DNA of 64,000 bases from the human T2T-CHM13v2.0 reference genome, Homo sapiens. Numbering within the stretch: the stretch's first letter is position 1; every line of letters starts with the position of its first letter. Of this stretch, positions 11,573-30,983 are shown in pieces. The stretch lies in assembly GCF_009914755.1 (NCBI RefSeq), contig NC_060929.1. One strand, written 5' to 3'. Made by a program: the position numbers and the translations under genes. The notes under the pieces are model-generated. The model was not told the origin of the DNA and searched no databases. It worked only from the letters and a program-made list of their open reading frames with translations.

Positions 11573-11999
11573 TTCCAATAGATTTTTCAATACATCCTCT
11601 GAGGAACGGAGAGCTTACAAATCCAGAAATATTCCTATTACTATATGAAAAAAAAATTAAGGAAGAATAGTTAAAGGAAACAAACTCATATCCTAGTAAA
11701 AAACATCTTTTGTGATACTACTAAAAGGAGAGCTAAATAGTAAGGTGAAATGTAGAGACCACATGTGGATTATGAACAAGATTCTTTTTGTTTTTATTAT
11801 TCTTTAAGTTCTGGGGTACATGTGCAGAATGTGCAGTTTTGTTAAATAGGTATACACGTGCCATGGTGGTTTGCTGCACCCATCAACCTGTCATCTACAT
11901 TAGGTATTTCTCCTAATGCTATCCCACCACTAGCCCCCCACCACATGACAGGCCATGGTGTGTGATGTTCCCCTCCCTGTGTCCATGTATTCTCATTGT

Positions 12000-14900
12000 T
12001 CAACTCCCACTTAGGACTGAGAACATGCAGTGATTGGTTTTCTGTTCTTGTGTCAGTTTGCTGAGAATGAAGGTTTCCAGCTTCATCCATGTCCCTGCAA
12101 AGGACATGAACTCATCCTTTTTTATGGCTGCATAGTATTCCATGGTGTATATGTGCCACATTTTCTTTATCCAGTCTATCATTGATGGGCATTTGGGTTG
12201 GTTCCAAGTCTTTGCTATTCTGAATAGTACTGCAATAAACATACGTGTGCATCTGTCATTATAGGAGAATGATTTATAATCTTTGGGTAAATACCCAGTA
12301 ATGGGATCGCTGGGTCAAATGGTATTTCTAGTTCTAGATCCTTGAGGAATTGCCACACTGTCTTCCACTATGGTTGAGCTAATTTACACTCCCACCAACA
12401 GGCTAAAAGCGTTCCTATTTCTCCACATCCTCTCCAGCATCTGTTGTTTCCTGACTTTTAATGATTGCCACTCTAACTGGTGTGAGATGGTATCTCATTG
12501 TGGTTTTTGATTTGCATTTCTCTAATGACCAGTAATGATAAGCTTTTTTTCATATGTCATTGTGGTTTCTGATTTGCATTTTTCTAATGACCAGTAATGA
12601 TGAGCTTTTTTTCATATGTTTGCGGGCTACATAAATGTCTTCTTTTGAGAAGTATCTATTTATAGACTTTGCCCAGTTTTGATGGGGTTGTTTGCTTTTT
12701 CTTGCAAATTTGTTTGAGTTCATTGTAGAGTCTAGATATCAGCCCTTTGTCAGATGGAGAGATTGCAAAAATTTTCTCCCATTCTGTAGGTTACTTGTTC
12801 ACTTTGATGATAATTTCTTTTGCTGTGCAGAAGCTCTTTAGTTTAATTAGATCCCATTTGTCAATTTTGTCTTTTGTTGCCATTGCTTTTGGCATTTTAG
12901 TCATGAAGTCTTAGCCCATGCCTATCTCCTGAATGGCATTGCCTAGGTTTTCTTCTAGGGTTTTTATGGTTTTAGGTCTTAGGTTTAAGTCTTTAATCCA
13001 TCTTGAGTTAATTTTTGTGTAAGTTGTAAGGAAGGGGTCCTGTTTCAGTTTTCTGCATATGGCTAGCCAGTTTTCCCAACACCATTTATTAAATAGGGAA
13101 TCCTTTCCCCATTGCTTGTTTTTCTCAGGTTTGTCAAAGATCAGATGGTTGTAGATGTGTGGTGTTATTTCTGTGGCCTCTGTTCCGTTCCATTGGTCTA
13201 TATATCTGTTTTGGTACCAGTATCATGCTCTTTTGGTTACTGTAACTTTGTGGTATAGTTTGAAGTCAGGTAGCATGATGACTCGAGCTTTGTTCTTTTT
13301 GCTTAGTATTGTCTTGGCTATGCGGGATCTTTTTTGGTTCTATATGAAATTTAAAGTAGTTTTTTCCAATTATCTGAAGAATGTCAGTGGTAGCTTGATG
13401 GGGATAGCATTGAATCTTTGGGAAGTAAATAAATTTGGGAAGTATGGCCATTTTCACGATATTGATTCTTCCTATCCATGAGCGTGGAATGTTTTTCCAT
13501 TTATTTGTGTCGTCTCTTATTTCCTTGAGTAGTGGTTTGTAGTTCTCCTTGAAGAGGTCTTTCACATCCCTTGTAAGTTATATTCCTAGGTATTTTATTC
13601 TCTTTGTAGCAATTGTGAATGGTAGTTTACTCATGATTTGTCTGTCTGTCTATTCTTGGTGTATAGGAATGCTTGTGATTTTTGCACATTGATTTTGTAT
13701 CCTGAGATTCTGCTGAAGTTGCTTATCAGCTTAAGGAGATTTTGGGCTGAGACGATGGAGTTTTCTAAATATACAATCATGTCATCTGCAAACAGAAACA
13801 ATTTGACTTCCTCTCTTCCTATTTGAATATGCTTTATTTCTTTCTTTGGCCTGATGGCCCTGGCCAGGACTTCCAATACTATGTTGAATAGGAGTGGTGA
13901 GAGAGGGCATCCCTGTCTTATGCCAGTTTTCAAAGGGAATGCTTCCAGTTTTTGACCATTCAGAATGATATTAGCTGTGGGTTTGTCATAAATAGCTCTT
14001 ATTATTTTGAGATACGTTCCATCAACACCTAGTTTATAGAGAGTTTTTAGCATGAAGGGCTGTTGAATTTTTTCAAAGGCCTTTTCTGCATCTATCGAGA
14101 TAATCACATGGTTTTTGTCATTGGTTCTGTTTATGTGATGGATTACGTTTACTGATTTGCATATGTTGAACCAGCCTTGCATCCCAGGGATGAAGCCGAC
14201 TTGATCTGGTGGATAAGCTTTTTGATGTGCTGCTGGATTTGTTTTGCCAGTATTTTAATGAGGATTTTCCCATCGATGTTCATCAGGGATATTGGCCTGA
14301 AATTTTCTTTTTTTTGTGGTGTGTCTGCCAGGTTTTGGTATCAGGCTGATACTGGTCTCATAAAATGAGTTAGGGAGGAGTCCCTCTTTTTCTATTGTTT
14401 GGAATAGTTTCAGAAGGAATGGTGCCAGCTCCTCTTTGTACCGCTGGTAGAATTCAACTGTTAATCCCTCTGGTCCTGGACTTTTTTTGGTTGGTAGGCT
14501 ATTAATTACTGCCTCACTTTCAGAACTTGTTATTGGTCTGTTCAGGGACTCAACTTCTTCTTGGTTTAGACTTGGGAGGGTGTATGCATCCAGGAATTTA
14601 TCCATTTCTTCTAGATTTTCTAGTTATTTGCATAGAGGTGTTTATAGTATTCTCTGATGGTAGTTTGTATTTCTGTGGGATCAATGGTGATATACTTTTT
14701 ATCATTTTGTACTGTGTCTATTTGATTCTTCTCTCTTTTCTTCTTTTTTATTCTGGCTAGTGGTCTATCTATTTTGTTGATCTTTTCAAAAAATCAGCTC
14801 CTGGATTCATTGATGTTTTGAAGGGCTTTTCGTGTCTCTATCTCCTTCAGTTCTGCTCTGATCTTAGTTATTTCTTGTCTTCTGGTAGCTTTTGAATTTG

Positions 14901-15883
14901 TTTGCTCTTGCTTCTCTAGTTCTTTTAATTGCAATGTTAGGGTGTTGATTTTAGATCTTTCCTGCTTTCTCTTGTGGGCATTTAGTGCTATAAATTTCTC
15001 TCTAAACACTGCCTTAAATGTGTCCCAGAGATTCTGTTATGTTGTGTTTTTGTTCTCATTGGTTTCAAAGAGCTTATTTATTTCTGCCTTAATTTCATTA
15101 TTTACCCAGTAGTCGTTCAGGAGTAGGTTGTTCAGTTTCCATGTAGTTGTGCAGTTTTGAGTGAGTTTCTTAATCCTGAGTTCTAGTTTGATTTCACTGT
15201 AATCTGAGAGACTGTTATTATTTCCATTTTTTGCCTTTGGTGAGGAGTGTTTTACTTCCAATTCTATGGTCAATTTTAGAATAAGTGTGATGTGGTGCTG
15301 CTAGGAATGTATATTCTGCTGATTTTGGGTGGAGAGTTCTGTAGATGTCTATTAGGTCCACTTGGTCCAGAGCTGAGTTCAAATCCTGAATATCCTTCTT
15401 AATTTTCTATCTCATCGATCTGTCTAATATTGACAGTGGGGTGTTAAAGTCTCCCATTATTATTGTGTGGGAGTCTAAGTCTCTTTGTAGGTCTCTAAGA
15501 ACTTGCTTTATGAATCTGGGTGCTCTTGTATTGGATGCCTATACATTTAGGATAGTTAGCTCTTCTTGTTGCATTGATCCCTTTACCATTATATAATGCC
15601 CTTCTTTGTCTCTTTTGATTTTTGTTGGTTTAAAGTCTGTTTTATCAGAGACTAGGATTGCAACCCCTGCTTTTTTTTGCTTTCCATTTGCTTGGTAAAT
15701 ATTCTTCCATCCCTTTATTTTGAGCCTATGTGTGCCTTTGCACATGAGATGTGTCTCCTGAATACAGCACACTGATAGGTCTTGACTCTTTATCCAGTTT
15801 GCCCGTCTGTGTCTTTTAATTGGGGCATTTAGTCCATTTACATTTAAGGTTAATATTGTTATGTGTGAATTTAATCCTGTCAT
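12000..15883 (-). pseudogene. Disrupted L1 ORF2 (endonuclease/reverse transcriptase)
   Basis: Fragments MTGLNSHITILTLNVNGLN (EN start), [15 protein letters not shown] and LFADDMIVY (RT motifs), C-terminal WNQPKCPS. Many frameshifts and stops. Confidence 0.95.
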
Positions 15884-15946
15884 TATGATGCTAGCTGGTT
15901 ATTTTGTCTGTTAGTTGATGCAGTTTCTTCATAGTGTTGACGGTCT

Positions 15947-16903
15947 TTACAATATGGTATGTTTTTGTAGTGGCTCATACCAGTTTTTCCTTTCCATGTT
16001 TAGTGCTTCCTTCAGGAGCTCTTGTAACACAGGCCTGGTGGGGACAAAGTCTCTCAGCATTTGCTTGTCTGTAAAGGATTTTATTTCTTCTTTGCTTATG
16101 AAGCTTAGTTTGGCTGGATATGAAATTCTAGGTTGAAAATTATTTTCTTTAAAAATGTTGAATATTGGCCCCTACTCTCTTCTGGCTTGTAGGATTTCTG
16201 CAGAGCGATCCACTGTTTGTCTGAAAGGCTTCCCTTTGTGAGTAACCCGACCTTTCTCTCTGGCTGCCCTTAACATTTTTTCCTTCATTTCAACCTTGGT
16301 GAATCTGACAATTATGTGTCTTGGAGTTGTTCTTCTCAAGGCGTATCTTTGTGGCGTTCTCTGTGTTTCCTGAATTTGAATGTTGGCCTGTCTTGCTAGG
16401 TTGGGGAAGTTCTCCTGGATAATATCCTGAAGGGTGTTTTCCAACTTGGTTCCATTCTCCCCGTCAGTTTCAGGTACACCAATCAAACGTAGATCTGGTC
16501 TTTTCATGTACTCCCATATTTCTTGGAGGCTTTGTTCATTCCTTTTCATTCTTTTCTCTCTAATCTTGTCTTCTCGATTTATTTCATTAGGTTGATTTTC
16601 AGTCTCTGATAGCCTTTCTTCTGCTTGATTGATTCAGCTATGATATTTGTGTATGCTTCACAAAGTTCTCGTGCTGTGTTTTTCAGCTCTATCAGGTCAT
16701 TTATATTCTTCTCTAAGCTGGTTATCCTAGTTAGCAATTCCTCTAGCCATTTTTCAAGGTTCTTAGCTTCCTTGCATTGGGTTAGAACACGCTCCTTTAG
16801 CTCAGAGGAGTTTGTTATTACTCAGCTTCTGAAGCCTACTTCTGTCAATTCATCAAACTCATTCTCCATCGTTTTGTTCCCTTGCTGGTGAGGGGTTGTG
16901 ATC
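15947..16903 (-). pseudogene. Disrupted L1 ORF1 lacking its first ~22 codons
   Basis: MKRNEQSLQEIWEYMKRPDLRLIGVPE...RHIIVRFTKVEMKEKMLRAAREKG; N-terminus lost at the splice junction. Confidence 0.92.
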
Positions 16904-17029
16904 CTCAGTTGGAAATGCAGAAATTACCTGCCTTCTGCAGTGATCTCACTGGGAGCTGAAGACCAGAGCTGTTCCTATTTGTCCATCTCGCCAGCCTCTC
17001 CTCTGAACAAGATTCCTACACTGCAATGA

Positions 17030-24606: not shown

Positions 24607-24939
24607 ATGTTTGCCAATCCTCAGTCATTTCTGTCTCCTCTTCACTTTTTGCCTCGTCTTAGTATCACCAATACTATCATCTTTTTCTGAAATTGATTCA
24701 GTTTTTACTTAATACATTTACATAAAGAAAAATAATTTTTATTATACTTTAAATTCTGGGATACATGTGCAGAACATGCAGGTTTGTTACATAGGTATAC
24801 ATGTGCCATGGTGGTTTGCTGCACCTGTCAACCATCTACATTAGGTATTTCTCTGAATGCTATCCCTCCCTTTGCCCCCACCCAGCAACAGGCCCTGGTG
24901 TGTGATCTTCCCCTCCCTGTGTCCATGTGTTCTCATTGT

Positions 24940-27900
24940 TCAACTCCCACTTATAAGTGAGAACATGCAGCGTTTGGTTTTCTGTTCCTGTGTTAGTTTG
25001 CTGAGAGTGATGGTTTCCAACTTCATCCATGTCCCTGCAAAGGACAAGAACTCATCCTTTTTTATGGCTGCATAGTATTCCATGGTGTATATGTGCCACA
25101 TTTTCTTTATCCAGTTTATCATTGATAAACTGGTTGGTTTCAAGTCTTTGTTATTGCAAATAGTGCTGTAATAAACATATGTGTGCATGTGTCTTTATAG
25201 TAGAATTATTTATAATCCTTTGGGTATATACCCAGTAATGGGATTGCTGGGTCAAATGGTATTTCTGGTTCTAGATCTTTGAGGAATCGCCACACTGTCT
25301 TCCACAATGGTTGAACTAATTTACACTCCCACCAAAAGAGTAAAAGCATTCCTGTTTCTCCACATCCTCTCCAGCATCTGTTGTTTCCTGACTTTTTAAT
25401 GATTGCCATCTAACTGGCGTGAGATGGTATCTCATTGTGGTTTTTGATTTGCATTTCTCTAATAACCAGTGTTGATAAGGTGTTTTTTCATATATTTGTT
25501 GGCCACATAAATGTCTTCTTTTGAGAAGTGTCTGTTCATATCCTTCACTCATGTTTTGATGGGGTTGTTTTTCTTCTTGTAAATGTGTTTAAGTTCCTTG
25601 TAGATTCTGGATATTAGCCCTTTGTCAGCTGGATAGAAAATTCTCTTCCATTCTGTAGGTTTCCTGTTCACTCTGATGATAGTTTCTTTTGCTGTGCAGA
25701 AGCTCTTTAGTTTAATTAGATCCCTTTTGTCACTACTGGCTTTTGTTGCCATTGCTTTTGGCATTTTAGTCATGAAGTCTTTGCCCATGCCTATGTCCTG
25801 AATGGCATTGCCTAGGTTTTCTTCTAGGTTTTTATAGTTTTAGGTCTTAAATTTAAGTCTTTAATCCATCTTGAGTTAATTTTTGTATAAGTTGTAAGAA
25901 AGGGGTCCAGTTTCAGTTTTCTGCATATGGCTAGCCAGTTTTCCCAACACCATTTATTAAATAGGGAATCCTTTCCCCATTTCTTGTTTTTGTCAGATTT
26001 ATCAAAGATCAGATGGTTGTGGATGTGCAGCATTATTTCTGATGCATCTGTTCTGTTCCATTGGTCTATATATCTGTTTTGGTACCAGTACCATGCTGTT
26101 TTGGTTACTGTAGCCTTGTGGTATAGTTTGAAGTCAGGTAGCATGATGCCTCCAGTTTTGTTCCTTTTGCTTAGGATTGTCTTGGCTATTTGGACTCTTT
26201 TTTGGTTCCATATGAAATTTAAAGTAGTTTTTTCTAATTCTGTGAGGAATGTCAATCATGGCTTGATGGGGATAGCATTGAATCTATAAATAACTTTGGG
26301 CAGTATGGCCATTTTCATGATATTGATTTTTCCTATCCATGAGCATGGAATGTTTTTCCATTTGTTTGTGTACTCTCTTATTTCCTTGAGCAGTTGTTTG
26401 TAGTTCTTCACATCCCTTGTGAGTTGTATTCCTGGGTATTTTATTATCTTTGTAGCAGTTGTGAATGGGAGTTCACTCATGATTTGTCTCTCTGCTTGTC
26501 TATTCTTGGTGTATAGGAATGCTTGTGATTTTTGCACATTGATTTTGTATCCTGAGACTTTGCTGAAGTTGCTTATCAGCTTAAGGAGATTTTGGGCTGA
26601 GACGATGGGGTTTTCTAAATATACAATCATGTCATCTGCAAACAGGGACAATTTGACTTCCTCTCTTCCTATTTGAATACTCTTTCTTTCTTTCTCTTGC
26701 CTGATTGCCCTGGCCAGAACGTCCAATACTATGTTGAATAGGAGTGGTGAGAGAGGGCATCCTTGTCTTGTGCCGGTTTTCAAAGAGAATGCTTCCAGTT
26801 TTTGCCCATTCTATATGATATTAGCTGTGGGTTTGTCATAAATAGCCCTTATTATTTTGAGATATGTTCCATCAACACCTAGTTTATTGAGAGCTTTTAG
26901 CATGAAGGGGTGTTGAATTTTATCAAAGGCCTTTTCTGCATCTCTTGAGATAATCAATCATGTGGTTTTTGTCATTGGTTCTGTTTATGTGATGGATTAT
27001 GTTTATTATTTTGCATATGTTGAACCAGCCTTGCATCCCAGGGATGAAGTCAACTTGATCGTGGTGGATAAGCTTTTTGATGTGCTGCTGGATTCTGTTT
27101 GCCAGTATTTTAATGAAGATTTTTGCATCGATCTTTATGAGGGATATTGGCCTGAAATTTTATTTTTTTGTGCCTCAATTTCAGAATTTATTATTGGTCT
27201 ATTCAGGGATTTGACTTCTTCCTGGTTTAGCCTTGGAAGGGTGTATGTGTCCAGGAATTTGTCCATTTCTTCTAGATTTTCTAGTTTATTTGCATAGAGG
27301 TGTTTATAGTATTCTCTGATGGTAGGTTGTTTTTCTGTGGGATCAATGGTGATATCCTCTTTATCATTTTTTATTGTGTCTATTTGATTCTTCTTTCTTT
27401 TCTTTTTTATTATTCTGGCTAGTGATCTATCTATTTTGTTAATCTCTTCAAAAAACCAGGTCCTGGATTCATTGATTTTTTTGAAGGGTTTTTCATGTCT
27501 CTATCTCCTTCAGTTCTGCTCTGATCTTAGTTATTTCTTGTCTTCTGGTAGCTTTTGAATTTGTTTGCTCTTGCTTCTCTAGTTCTTTTAATTGTGATGT
27601 TAGGGTGTTGACTTTAGATCTTTCCTGCTTTCTCCTGTGGGCATTTAGTGCTATACATTTCTCTCCAAACATTGCTTTAGCTGTGTCCCACAGATTCTGG
27701 TACATTGTGTCTTTGTTCTCATTGGTTTCAAAAAACTTATTTATTTCTGCCTTAATTTCGTTATTTACCCAGTAGTCATTCAGGAGCAGGTTGTTCAGTT
27801 TCCATGTAGTTGTGCGGTTTTGAGTAAGTTTCTTAATCCTGAGTTCTAATTTGATTGCACTGTGGTCTGAGAGACTGTTGTGATTTCCGTTCTTTTGCAT

Positions 27901-28583
27901 TCGGTGTGTAGTGTTTTACTTCCAATTATGTGGTCAATTTTAGAATAAGTGCGATGTGGTGCTGCTAAGAATGTATATTCTGTTGATTTGAAGTGGAGAG
28001 TTGTGTAGATGTCTGCTTGGTCCAAAGCTGAGTTCAAGTTCTGAGTTCTGTAGGTCTGCTTGGTCCAGAGCTGAGTTTAAGTCCTGAATATTCTTGTTAA
28101 TTTTCTGTCTCATTGTTCTGTCTAATATTGACAGTGGAGTGTCAAAGTCTCCCATTATTATTGTGTGAGAGTCTAAGTCTCTTTGTAGGTCTCTAAGAAC
28201 TTGCTTTATGAATCTGGGTGCTCCTGTATTGGGTGCATATATATGTAGAATAGTTAGCTCTGCTTGTTGCATTCATCCCTTTACCATTATGTAATGCCCT
28301 TCTTTGTCTTTTTTTATCTTTGTTGGTTTAAAGTCTGTTTTATGAGAGACTAGGATTGCAACCCCTGCTTTTTTTCTTTTCCTTTCCATTTGCTTGGTAA
28401 ATATTCCTCCATCCCTTTATTTTGAGCCTATGTGTGTCTTTGCACGTGAGATGGGTCTCCTGAATACAGCACAATGATGGATTTTGACTCTATCCAATTT
28501 GCCAGTCTGTGTCTTTTAATTGTGGCATTTAGCCCGTTTGCATTTAAGGTTAATATTGTTATGTGTTAATCTGATCCTGTCAT
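24940..28583 (-). pseudogene. Disrupted L1 ORF2
   Basis: IYAPNTGAPRFIKQVL (EN), [15 protein letters not shown] and LFADDMIVY (RT). Multiple frameshifts. Confidence 0.95.
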
Positions 28584-28646
28584 TATGATGCTAGTTGGTT
28601 ATTTTGCCTGTTAGTTGATGCAGTTTCTTCATAGTGTCGGTGGTCT

Positions 28647-29668
28647 TTATAGTTTGTTATGTTTTTGCAGTGGCTGGTACTGGTTTTTCCTTTATGTGTT
28701 TAGTGCTGCCTTCTGGAGCTCTTGTAAGGCAGGCCTGGTGGTGACAAAATCGCTCAGCATTTGCTTGTCTCTCAGGATTTTATTTCTTCTTTGCTAATGA
28801 AGCTTAGTTTGGCTGGATATGAAATTCTGGGCTGAAAATTCTTTTCTTTAAGAATGTTAAATATTGGCCCCCCACTCTATTCTGGCTTGTAGGGTTTCAG
28901 CAGACAAATCTGCTATTAGTTTAATGGGCTTCCCTTTGTGAGTAAACCGACCTTTCTCTCTGGCTGCCCTTAACATTTTTTTCTTCATTTCATCCTTGGT
29001 GAATCTGATGATTATGTGTCTTGGGGTTGCTCTTCTCGAGGAGTATCTTTGTGGTGTTCTCTGTATTTACTGATTTGAATATTGGCCTGTCTTGCTAGGT
29101 TGGGGAAGTTCTCCTGGATAATATCCTAAGAGTGTTTTCAAACTTGGTTCTATTCTCCCCAGCACTTTCAGGTACATCAATTAAACATAGGTTTGGTCTT
29201 TTCACATAGTCCCATATTTCTTGGAGGCTTTGTTCGTTCCTTTTCATTCTTTTTTTCTCTAATCTTGACGTCACACTTTATGTCATTAAGTTGATCTTCA
29301 ATCTCTGATATCCTTTCTTCTGCTTGATCGATTCAGCTATTGATACTTCTGTATGCTTCACGAAGGTCTCGTGCTGTGTTTTTCAGCTCCATCAGATCAT
29401 TTATGTTCTTCTCTAAAGTGGTTATTCTAGTTAGCAATTCCTCCAGCCTTTTTTCATTTTTAGCTTCCTTGCATTGGGTTAGAACATGCTCCTTTAGCTC
29501 AGAGGAGTTTGTTATTACCCACCTTCTGAAGCCTCCTTCTGTAAATTCGTCAAACTCATTCTCCATCCAGTTTTGTTCTCTTGCTGGCAAGGAGTTGTGA
29601 TCCTTTGCAGGAGAAAAGGTGTTCTGGTTTTTGGAATTTTCAGCCTTTTTGCACTGGTTTTTCCTCAT
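28647..29668 (-). pseudogene. Disrupted L1 ORF1
   Basis: Starts MRKNQCKKAENSKNQNTFSPAKDHNS; coiled-coil region, then stops and frameshifts. Confidence 0.92.
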
Positions 29669-30983
29669 CTTCATGGATTTATCTACCTTTGGTCTTTGAT
29701 GCTGGTGACCTTCGGATGGGGTTTTTGTGTGGATGTCCTTTTTGTTGATGTTGACGCTATTCCTTTCTGTTTGTTAGTTTTCCTTCTAACAGTCAGGCCC
29801 CTCTGCTGCAGGTCTGCTGGAGTTTGTTGGAGATCCACTCCAGACCCTGTTTACCTGGGTATCACCAGCGCAGGCTACAGAACAGCACAGATTGCTGCCT
29901 GTTCCTTCCTCTGGAAGCTTCGTCTCAGACGGGCACCCACCAGATGTCTGTTGACCCCTGCTGGAAGGTCTCTCCCACTCCGGAGGCACAGGGGTCAGGG
30001 ACCCACTTGAGGAGGCAGTCTGTCCCTTAGCAGAACTTGAGCACTGTGCTGGGAGATCTGCTGCTCTCTTCAGAGCCAGCAGGCAGGAACGTTTAAGTGT
30101 CCTGAAGCTGTGCCCACAGCTGCCCCTTCCCCCAGGTGCTCTGTCCCAGGGAGATGGGAGTTTTATCTATAAGTCCCTGACTGGGGCTGCTGCCTTTGTT
30201 TCAGAGATGCCCTGCTCAGAGAGGAGGAATCTAGAGAGACACTCTTGCTACAGCAACTTTGCCGAGCTGCAGTGGGCTCCACCCAGTTCAAACTTCCCAG
30301 CAGCTTTGTTTACACTGTGAGGGGGAAACTGCCTAATCAAGCCTCAGTAATGGCAGACGCCCCTCCCTGCACCAAGCTCAAGCATTCCAGGTGGACATCA
30401 GACTGCTGTGCTGGCAGCGAGAATTTCAACCCAGTGGGTCTTAGCTTGTTGGGCTCCGTGGGGGTGGGATCTGCTGAGCTAGACCACTTGGCTCCCTGGC
30501 TTCAGTGCCCCTTTCCAGGGGAGTGAACAGTTCTGTCTCGCTGGCATTCTAGGGGCTACTAGGGTATGAAAAAAACTCCTGCTGCTAGCTCAGTGTCTGC
30601 CCAAATGGCTGCCCAGTTTTTTGCTTGAAACCCAGGGCCCTGGTGGTGCAGGCACCCAAGGGAATCTCCTGGTCTGTGGGTTGCAAAGACCGTGGGGAAA
30701 GCATAGTATCTGTGCCGGAATGCCCCGTTCCTCACGGCACAGTCCCTCACAGCTTCCCTTGGCTAGGGGAGGGAGTTCCCTGACCCCTTGCGCTTCCCGG
30801 GTGAGGCGACACCCCACCCTGCTTCTGCTTGCCTTCTGTGGGCTGCACCCACTGTCTAACCAGTCCCAATGAGATGAGCTGGGTACTTTAGTTGGAAATG
30901 CAGAAATTATCTCCTTCTGCGTTGATCTCGCTGGGAGCTGCAGAGCAGAGCTGTTCCTATTCAGCCATCTTTCCAGACACCTC
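29669..30983 (-). promoter_or_regulatory. L1 5'UTR internal promoter region (CpG-decayed) with YY1 motif
   Basis: GC-rich L1 5'UTR; AAGATGGC on the minus strand at 30964-30971. Activity unknown. Confidence 0.6.

What the first reader, a model, noticed from the sequence alone, without database searches (positions are those of the whole stretch)
11785..17003. L1PA7-like element retrotransposed from a spliced RNA, with its unspliced sister 8 kb away
Seen: both TSDs and the extreme 5' end are present, yet the L1 sense strand reads ...ttccaactgag|gatcacaac... at 16904/16903. In the sister L1 those two sequences are separated by 29603-30886 (1284 bp), which begins GTACCC and ends ttttctcctgcaaAG, an exact GT-AG intron with a pyrimidine tract. 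The sister's first exon is 97 bp. Known: this matches the 5'UTR +97 donor to ORF1 acceptor class of spliced integrated retrotransposed elements (SpIRE 97/976 type), which I recall being surveyed mainly in L1PA1-PA6. Inference: the splice removed most of the promoter, the ORF1 ATG and 22 codons, so the copy was dead on arrival and probably needed ORF1p supplied in trans. It would extend that splice-site pair to an older subfamily with a longer 5'UTR.
Basis: partly seen in the sequence, partly recalled or inferred. Interest (0 to 1): 0.82.

Follow-up and report, generated by a model that had tools for sequence, protein, structure and literature searches.

The report
Old spliced L1 retrocopy (SpIRE)
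This is a roughly 30-million-year-old LINE-1 copy made from an RNA that had been spliced between a known donor in its 5'UTR and a known acceptor in ORF1, which is a described kind of dead-on-arrival L1 found here in an older subfamily than the published lists cover.

Summary
A minus-strand L1 (11785-17003) has 12-bp target-site duplications, an A-rich tail and an intact 5' terminus. It reads ...CCAACTGAG|GATCACAAC... at 16904/16903. The neighbouring full-length L1 (24734-30983) has 1,284 bp (30886-29603) between those points, starting GT and ending in a pyrimidine tract plus AG.

In unspliced relatives genome-wide, 88 of 100 listed copies have GT at the donor and 91 of 100 have AG at the acceptor.

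The same donor/acceptor junction occurs at 28 loci in this assembly and at 0 in reversed-pattern controls. Ten of these match the 11 published SpIRE97/976 copies. One, on chr7, belongs to the same old lineage and has its own 15-bp duplications.

In a tree with published subfamily labels, this element falls outside the PA2-PA6 copies. It sits next to its neighbour, which a 2026 preprint names L1PA7.

It is therefore a SpIRE97/976-type insertion in an L1PA7-like lineage and is absent from Larson et al.'s table. The mechanism is known, so this is a new member of a known kind.

The "sister" is only a comparator: at least 39 other copies are closer to this element. Orthology in monkeys could not be tested.

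The parts
17004..17015 (-). 5' target-site duplication GAATCTTGTTCA of element A
   Evidence: Read. Exact 12-bp repeat found by script.
16904..17003 (-). Exon 1 of element A: the L1 5' terminus up to the +97-type splice donor, ending ...TTTCCAACTGAG
   Evidence: In one search it aligns with exon 1 of 25 other junction-bearing copies. In one search the conserved GAGATGG...AATAGGAAC motif lies 86 nt before the junction, as in 24 others.
16903..16904 (-). Splice junction GAG|GAT. 1,284 bp present in unspliced copies are absent here.
   Evidence: The same junction is found at 28 genomic loci and 0 in the reversed control.
11802..16903 (-). Exon 2 of element A: ORF1 from codon 23 onward, the inter-ORF spacer, ORF2 and the 3'UTR. 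All are decayed; the longest open frame is 183 aa.
   Evidence: Colinear with B from the acceptor to the 3' end. ORF list.
11785..11801 (-). Short A-rich tail AATAATAAAAACAAAAA
11773..11784 (-). 3' target-site duplication GAATCTTGTTCA of element A
24734..30983 (-). Neighbour B: an unspliced full-length L1 used as the comparator. It is flanked by 9-bp TSDs ATTTTTCTT (30992-30984 and 24733-24725). The MAJEC preprint names it L1PA7_dup4347.
29603..30886 (-). The 1,284 bp of B that A lacks. It begins GTACCC (30886-30881) and ends TTTTCTCCTGCAAAG (29617-29603). It holds most of the 5'UTR plus the ORF1 ATG (29668-29666) and 22 codons.
   Evidence: GT is present in 88 of 100 and AG in 91 of 100 listed unspliced relatives.

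Best explanation

Proposed sequence of events:
1. A full-length transcript of an L1PA7-like master element was spliced by the host spliceosome. The donor was the conserved one at 5'UTR position +97 (GAG|GTACC). The acceptor was the AG in codon 22 of ORF1 (pyrimidine tract, then AAAG|GAT).
2. This removed about 1.28 kb: most of the internal promoter, the ORF1 start codon and 22 codons.
3. The spliced RNA was inserted by ordinary L1 target-primed reverse transcription. That left a complete 5' terminus, an A-rich tail and 12-bp target-site duplications.

The copy is homologous to SpIRE97/976 of Larson et al. In the numbering of its own longer 5'UTR it would be 97/1382.

Shown here: the anatomy, the position of the gap on GT and AG, the recurrence of the junction at independent loci, and the placement outside the PA2-PA6 copies.

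Inferred: that RNA splicing rather than DNA deletion made the gap, that the copy had no working promoter or ORF1p from the start, and that ORF1p came from another L1 in trans.
For: 1. Anatomy. TSDs, tail, intact 5' end and one clean 1,284-bp gap relative to B, otherwise colinear.

2. Splice sites.
- In B the gap starts GT and ends with a pyrimidine tract plus AG.
- A donor-side pattern with NN at the GT matched 1,567 places, against 0 in the reversed control. Of the 100 listed, 88 read GT (9 AT, 1 TT, 1 GC, 1 GA).
- An acceptor-side pattern with NN at the AG matched 329 places, against 0 in the control. Of the 100 listed, 91 read AG.

3. Recurrence.
- A degenerate 35-nt junction pattern with up to 3 mismatches found 28 loci and 0 in the control.
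- All 28 have different 5' flanks, and 26 of 28 keep the L1 5' terminus.
- 16 of 28 have an exact TSD of at least 9 bp placed after the tail. One more has a TSD with a single mismatch.
- Ten loci correspond by chromosome and position to 10 of Larson's 11 SpIRE97/976 copies. Two of these were checked against the flanks in S1 Data.

4. Same lineage, second event.
- The chr7 copy (G000:C7:96.06 Mb) has the identical GATCACAAC-type junction and its own 15-bp TSD, AAGAGTTTGGATAAG.
- A is closer to unspliced B than to that copy (node support 0.988).
- A is also closer to 39 other genomic copies (89-90% identity) than to the chr7 copy (86.9%).
- The two therefore look like separate splicing events.

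5. Age.
- The trees form a ladder: PA2, PA3, PA4, PA5, PA6, then a chr9 copy, then (chr7, (A, B)). Support for the A/B/chr7 group is 1.0.
- Terminal branch lengths are PA2 0.011-0.014, PA6 0.050-0.051, A 0.061, B 0.058 and chr7 0.080.
- B is called L1PA7 in the MAJEC preprint (passages read).

6. Published experiments (sections read). The L1.3 donor G98U99 and acceptor A974G975 are used in cells. The spliced construct does not retrotranspose in cis and is rescued at low level by ORF1p supplied in trans.
Against: - The junction has 3 bp of microhomology: AGG lies at both edges, as the splice-site consensus itself dictates. A microhomology-mediated DNA deletion would give the same product in any single copy.
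- No primate ortholog could be examined, so the state at the time of insertion was not observed.
- No RNA evidence exists for splicing in this subfamily.
- B's own donor exon now reads CTAAA rather than CTGAG, so B itself does not display the full donor context.
- The endonuclease site implied by the TSD (ATTC/C, or TCCT/A if the TSD is read as 14 bp with one mismatch) is far from the TTTT/A consensus.
- A's subfamily label rests on grouping with one labelled neighbour and on anchors labelled by Larson. No RepeatMasker or Dfam classification was available, so L1PA7 and L1PA8 cannot be told apart for A.
Confidence: 0.9

Rival explanations
1. A full-length L1 inserted here and later lost 1,284 bp through a genomic deletion, for example microhomology-mediated end joining at the AGG repeats. 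The coincidence with splice sites would then be accidental.
For: 3 bp of microhomology (AGG) at the two edges. No ortholog was examined.
Against: - Both edges land on the exact nucleotides used by a documented splice pair.
- The same junction recurs at 27 other loci with different flanks, and 0 times in the reversed control.
- One of those is a copy of the same lineage with its own TSDs.
- Two random deletion ends in a 6.2-kb element would hit these positions with a probability of about 1e-7 (inference).
Confidence: 0.05
2. A was not made by a fresh splicing event. It is a retrocopy of an older SpIRE, such as the chr7 copy or a lost relative, that was transcribed from a flanking promoter and mobilised in trans.
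For: Larson et al. show that 97/976 RNA can be mobilised at low level when ORF1p is supplied in trans. Two copies of the old lineage share the junction.
Against: - A groups with unspliced B rather than with the chr7 SpIRE, with support 0.988. Shared site patterns are A+B 34, B+chr7 25 and A+chr7 12.
- Over 1,004 nt of ORF1, A is 86.9% identical to the chr7 copy but 89-90% identical to 39 other copies.
- No 5' transduced sequence lies between the TSD and the L1 terminus.
Confidence: 0.04
3. The gap arose during reverse transcription. The L1 reverse transcriptase jumped along the template from ORF1 to position +97.
For: None specific. Template jumps by L1 reverse transcriptase are known (recalled, not from a call).
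Against: A template jump has no reason to land on GT and AG or to recur at the same two nucleotides at 28 loci.
Confidence: 0.01

Closest known systems
SpIRE97/976 (5'UTR/ORF1 spliced integrated retrotransposed elements; Belancio et al. 2006, Larson et al. 2018, PMC5860796)
   Same: - Same donor (the GT after ...CCAWCTGAG) and same acceptor (the AG of ORF1 codon 22).
- Same loss of the ORF1 ATG plus 66 nt.
- Same hallmarks (TSDs, tail, full 5' end).
- Length of 5,219 bp falls within their range of 4,058-5,232 bp.
   Different: - The subfamily is older. Larson's list runs from PA2 to PA4, with one copy labelled PA4-PA6. This one groups with an L1PA7-labelled element outside the PA6 anchors.
- The excised stretch is 1,284 bp rather than 878 bp, because this 5'UTR is about 1,315 nt long.
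- Exon 2 starts GATCACAAC rather than GAACGCAG.
- Larson's 100-nt L1.3 probe with a >95% identity cut-off would not have found it.
SpIRE97/622, 97/790 and 97/853 (intra-5'UTR SpIREs, Larson et al. 2018)
   Same: Same +97 donor and the same route of splicing followed by retrotransposition.
   Different: Their acceptors lie inside the 5'UTR, so ORF1 stays whole. Larson et al. report no 97/622 copy older than L1PA6.
Processed pseudogenes (retrocopies of spliced cellular mRNAs)
   Same: An intron is removed before L1-mediated insertion, and the copy has TSDs and a tail.
   Different: Here the spliced RNA is L1's own transcript and the 'intron' is its promoter and the start of its first gene.

Membership tests
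SpIRE97/976 class | L1 insertion with the hallmarks of target-primed reverse transcription (TSDs, 3' A-rich tail) | tested here: met
   12-bp TSD at 17015-17004 and 11784-11773, and a 17-nt A-rich tail. The implied endonuclease site is atypical.
SpIRE97/976 class | Complete L1 5' terminus up to the +97 donor | tested here: met
   Exon 1 at 17003-16904 aligns with the first exon of 25 other copies. The conserved motif lies 86 nt before the junction.
SpIRE97/976 class | Internal gap whose edges are the GT donor and AG acceptor of unspliced copies | tested here: met
   B has GT at 30886-30885 and AG at 29604-29603. Of the listed relatives, 88 of 100 have GT and 91 of 100 have AG.
SpIRE97/976 class | The donor/acceptor pair is homologous to L1.3 G98U99/A974G975, removing the ATG and 66 nt of ORF1 | tested here: met
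   The junction aligns with 10 copies listed by Larson. The ATG lies 66 nt upstream of the acceptor in B.
SpIRE97/976 class | Recurrence as independent insertions | tested here: met
   28 loci with distinct flanks, and 0 in the control. The chr7 copy of the same lineage has its own 15-bp TSD.
SpIRE97/976 class | The gap was present at insertion: orthologs share it and the empty site lacks the element | not testable with these tools
   No primate genomes are held.
SpIRE97/976 class | RNA of this subfamily is actually spliced at this pair | not testable with these tools
   Only L1.3 experiments are in print.
L1PA7 subfamily | Sequence assignment to L1PA7 rather than PA6 or PA8 | tested here: inconclusive
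   - A groups with B (support 0.988). B is named L1PA7 in the MAJEC preprint.
- A lies outside the PA5/PA6 anchors, and its terminal branch of 0.061 exceeds the PA6 value of 0.050.
- No RepeatMasker or Dfam call was available for A. Khan et al. 2006 is not held.

The most novel reading that the evidence does not exclude
The +97 donor has been producing SpIREs for at least about 30 to 40 million years, back to L1PA7- or L1PA8-like elements. The published catalogue is therefore a young-biased undercount. This assembly holds 28 loci with the 97/976-type junction against 11 listed, and 78 matches to the 97/853-type junction against 9 listed. In the old lineage, the two 97/976 copies look like separate splicing events. 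If so, SpIRE formation is a steady by-product of every L1PA subfamily that carries the RUNX3-site donor, not a feature of the last 27 million years.
Probability: 0.6. Interest if true: 0.35.

Novelty: new member of a known kind. Interest (0 to 1): 0.25.

Why it matters
The mechanism is already described and tested, so nothing about L1 biology changes.

The modest value lies in bookkeeping and time depth. This copy and the chr7 copy push the 97/976 splice pair back to an L1PA7-like lineage with a 1.3-kb 5'UTR. That fits Larson et al.'s statement that the donor is conserved back to L1PA10.

The counts also show that a probe built from L1.3 with a 95% identity cut-off misses most older SpIREs. 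Anyone counting 'full-length' old L1s, or using them to infer promoter evolution, should expect a small fraction to be spliced copies.

Tried and rejected
- B as the source or true sister of A: rejected. Over 1,004 nt of ORF1, B is 88.1% identical to A while 39 other copies are 89-90% identical. Sliding 300-nt identity between A and B stays at 88-94%, so there are no gene-conversion tracts.
- Further GATCACAAC-type copies: two shifted junction patterns found only A and the chr7 copy. Copies with more than 3 mismatches in 35 nt would be missed.
- The first tree had four very long branches caused by rearranged or interrupted copies. It was redone on an alignment anchored to B and gave the same topology.
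- Subfamily diagnostics from print. Khan 2006 and Belancio 2006 and 2008 are not held. Table 2 of Wagstaff 2013 is not in the held text. Campitelli 2022 gave nothing usable.
Three shorter anchors were fetched instead, so they cover only about 2 kb of the alignment.
- The 11th copy in Larson's table (chr15:54.06 Mb, hg38) was not recovered by the junction pattern. No reason was established.
Full report
**The observation**

I re-read both elements on the minus strand. Element A runs from 17003 to 11785.

- Immediately upstream lies GAATCTTGTTCA (17015-17004).
- The same 12 bases follow the A-rich tail (11784-11773). A script found this as the best exact repeat in the right places.
- A begins GAGGAGAGGCTGGCGAGATGGACAAATAGGAAC, the L1 5' terminus.
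- It reads ...TTTCCAACTGAG|GATCACAACCCC... with the bar between 16904 and 16903.

The neighbouring L1, B, starts at 30983 and is flanked by ATTTTTCTT.

- After 97 nt B continues GTACCCAGCTC... from 30886.
- It reaches ...CCTTTTCTCCTGCAAAG at 29603, after which GATCACAACTCC follows.
- BLAST of A on B leaves just this 1,284-bp gap. The two are otherwise colinear at 86-91% identity.
- B's ORF1 ATG (29668-29666) is 66 nt before the acceptor, so the gap takes the ATG and 22 codons.
- B's 5'UTR is about 1,315 nt.

**Are the edges real splice sites in this lineage?**

- Donor side. A pattern with NN in place of GT matched 1,567 places and none when reversed. Of the 100 places the tool listed, 88 read GT, 9 AT, and 1 each TT, GC and GA.
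- Acceptor side. A pattern with NN in place of AG matched 329 places and none reversed. Of the 100 listed, 91 read AG.
- The common form of the intron end is CCTCTTCTCCTCCAAAG, a 13-nt pyrimidine tract.

The test is passed.

**Recurrence**

- The exact 18-mer across the junction occurs twice in the assembly, here and on chr7.
- A degenerate 35-nt pattern covering the younger variants of exon 2, with up to 3 mismatches, found 28 loci and none reversed.
- I fetched all of them. All 28 have different 5' flanks, and 26 of 28 keep the L1 5' terminus. The other 2 are truncated inside exon 1.
- 16 of 28 have an exact TSD of at least 9 bp directly after the tail. The chr9 copy has one with a single mismatch.
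- For the remaining 11, no exact repeat was found in the 6.3 kb fetched. Several of these copies are rearranged or interrupted.

**Comparison with the published list**

Larson et al. 2018 is PMC5860796. I read sections 7, 13, 15, 16, 21, 22 and 39 (first of two parts only), S1 Table part 2, and passages of S1 Data. They list 11 SpIRE97/976 copies labelled PA2, PA3, PA4 and one PA4-PA6.

- Ten of my 28 loci match ten of these by chromosome and nearby coordinate. Two were confirmed by flanking sequence shown in S1 Data.
- Their chr15 copy was not recovered.
- The other 18 loci, including A, are not in the table.
- Their probe was 100 nt of L1.3 with more than 95% identity required, which explains the gap.
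- They state that the donor is conserved from L1PA1 to L1PA10, and that they found no 97/622 copy older than L1PA6.

**Age and subfamily**

I aligned 4.87 kb downstream of the acceptor for the following rows:
- the 28 junction copies;
- B;
- three 97/853 SpIREs that Larson labels PA5 or PA6, located through their junction and fetched over about 2.5 kb each.

Results:
- Both trees give the ladder expected for L1PA: PA2, PA3, PA4, PA5, PA6, then the chr9 copy, then (chr7, (A, B)).
- Support is 1.0 for the A/B/chr7 group and 0.988 for A+B.
- Terminal branches rise in step: 0.011-0.014 (PA2), 0.026-0.031 (PA3), 0.030-0.036 (PA4), 0.043 (PA5), 0.050-0.051 (PA6). Then 0.058 (B and the chr9 copy), 0.061 (A) and 0.080 (chr7).
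- Taking Larson's figure of about 27 million years for PA6, simple proportion puts A near 33 million years. This is rough.
- The MAJEC preprint (10.64898/2026.04.10.717472, passages read) calls the minus-strand L1 inside LINC01949 'L1PA7_dup4347'. That element is B.

A is therefore L1PA7-like. I could not run RepeatMasker or Dfam, and Khan et al. 2006 is not held, so PA7 against PA8 remains open for A. The chr7 copy may be older.

**The 'sister'**

- Over 1,004 nt of ORF1, A matches B at 88.1% and the chr7 SpIRE at 86.9%.
- The 39 best other copies in the genome match at 89-90%. Only 40 of 8,481 candidates were scored, so more may exist.
- Identity between A and B in 300-nt windows stays between 88% and 94%, so there is no sign of gene conversion.

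B is just another member of the subfamily, and its position 7.7 kb away looks like coincidence. The same numbers argue that A is not a copy of the chr7 SpIRE. The two appear to come from separate splicing events.

**Mechanism**

- The best reading is that a full-length L1PA7-like RNA was spliced from the +97 donor to the ORF1 codon-22 acceptor and then inserted by ordinary target-primed reverse transcription.
- For L1.3, Larson et al. showed that this spliced form makes only N-terminally truncated ORF1p. It does not retrotranspose in cis even with a CMV promoter, and it moves at low level when ORF1p is supplied in trans.
- Applying that to this subfamily is inference.
- A today is decayed. Its longest open frame is 183 aa.

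**What counts against this reading**

- The edges share AGG, so a microhomology deletion would give the same product in one copy.
- No ortholog or RNA evidence could be examined.
- The implied endonuclease site is atypical.
- The recurrence at 28 loci and the exact GT and AG placement make a DNA deletion unlikely. I put it at about 0.05.

**Literature on older SpIREs**

Two searches were run: 'spliced integrated retrotransposed' (21 papers, 16 listed), and L1PA7/L1PA8 with splice terms (48 papers, 20 listed). Judged from the listings and from passages of four papers, neither turned up a survey of SpIREs in L1PA7 or older. Belancio 2006 and 2008 could not be read, and their lists might bear on this.

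**Verdict**

This is a real SpIRE of a known class in an older subfamily than the published catalogue holds. It is a new member of a known kind, and interest is low to moderate.

Noticed in passing
Genome-wide (G000); loci L033-L059: Besides A, 17 loci carry the 97/976-type junction but are absent from Larson et al.'s S1 Table. By tree position, most look PA4- to PA6-like. 10 of the 17 have an exact TSD after the tail, and the chr9 copy has one with a single mismatch.
   Followed up: partly
Genome-wide (G000): The 97/853-type SpIRE junction matched 78 places (0 in the reversed control), against 9 copies published. About 20 of the exact matches lie in acrocentric short arms, pericentromeres and chrY. 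They are probably segmental duplicates of one insertion.
   Followed up: no
window 28386-30983: The annotated last exon of LINC01949 (28386-30980) begins 3 nt inside neighbour B, right after an AG at 30982-30981. It runs through B's 5'UTR and ORF1. The MAJEC preprint reports no junction-spanning reads for this lncRNA. It attributes the decitabine-induced signal to the L1PA7 itself.
   Followed up: partly
window about 27171 (B); A 14318-14510: B lacks about 193 bp that A and the other junction-bearing copies that reach this point have. This is a deletion private to B.
   Followed up: no
Genome-wide (G000): 9 of the 100 listed unspliced copies read AT rather than GT at the +97 donor, more than any other variant. 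This could be a sub-lineage without a working donor or a recurrent G-to-A change.
   Followed up: no
L036 (G000:C3:138.15 Mb), L056 (G000:C1:172.59 Mb), L050 (G000:C7:96.06 Mb): Two junction-bearing copies are rearranged. One has an internal inversion. The other has inverted L1 sequence at its 5' side and an internal deletion. The chr7 copy carries an insertion of about 490 bp that has no Alu head motif.
   Followed up: no
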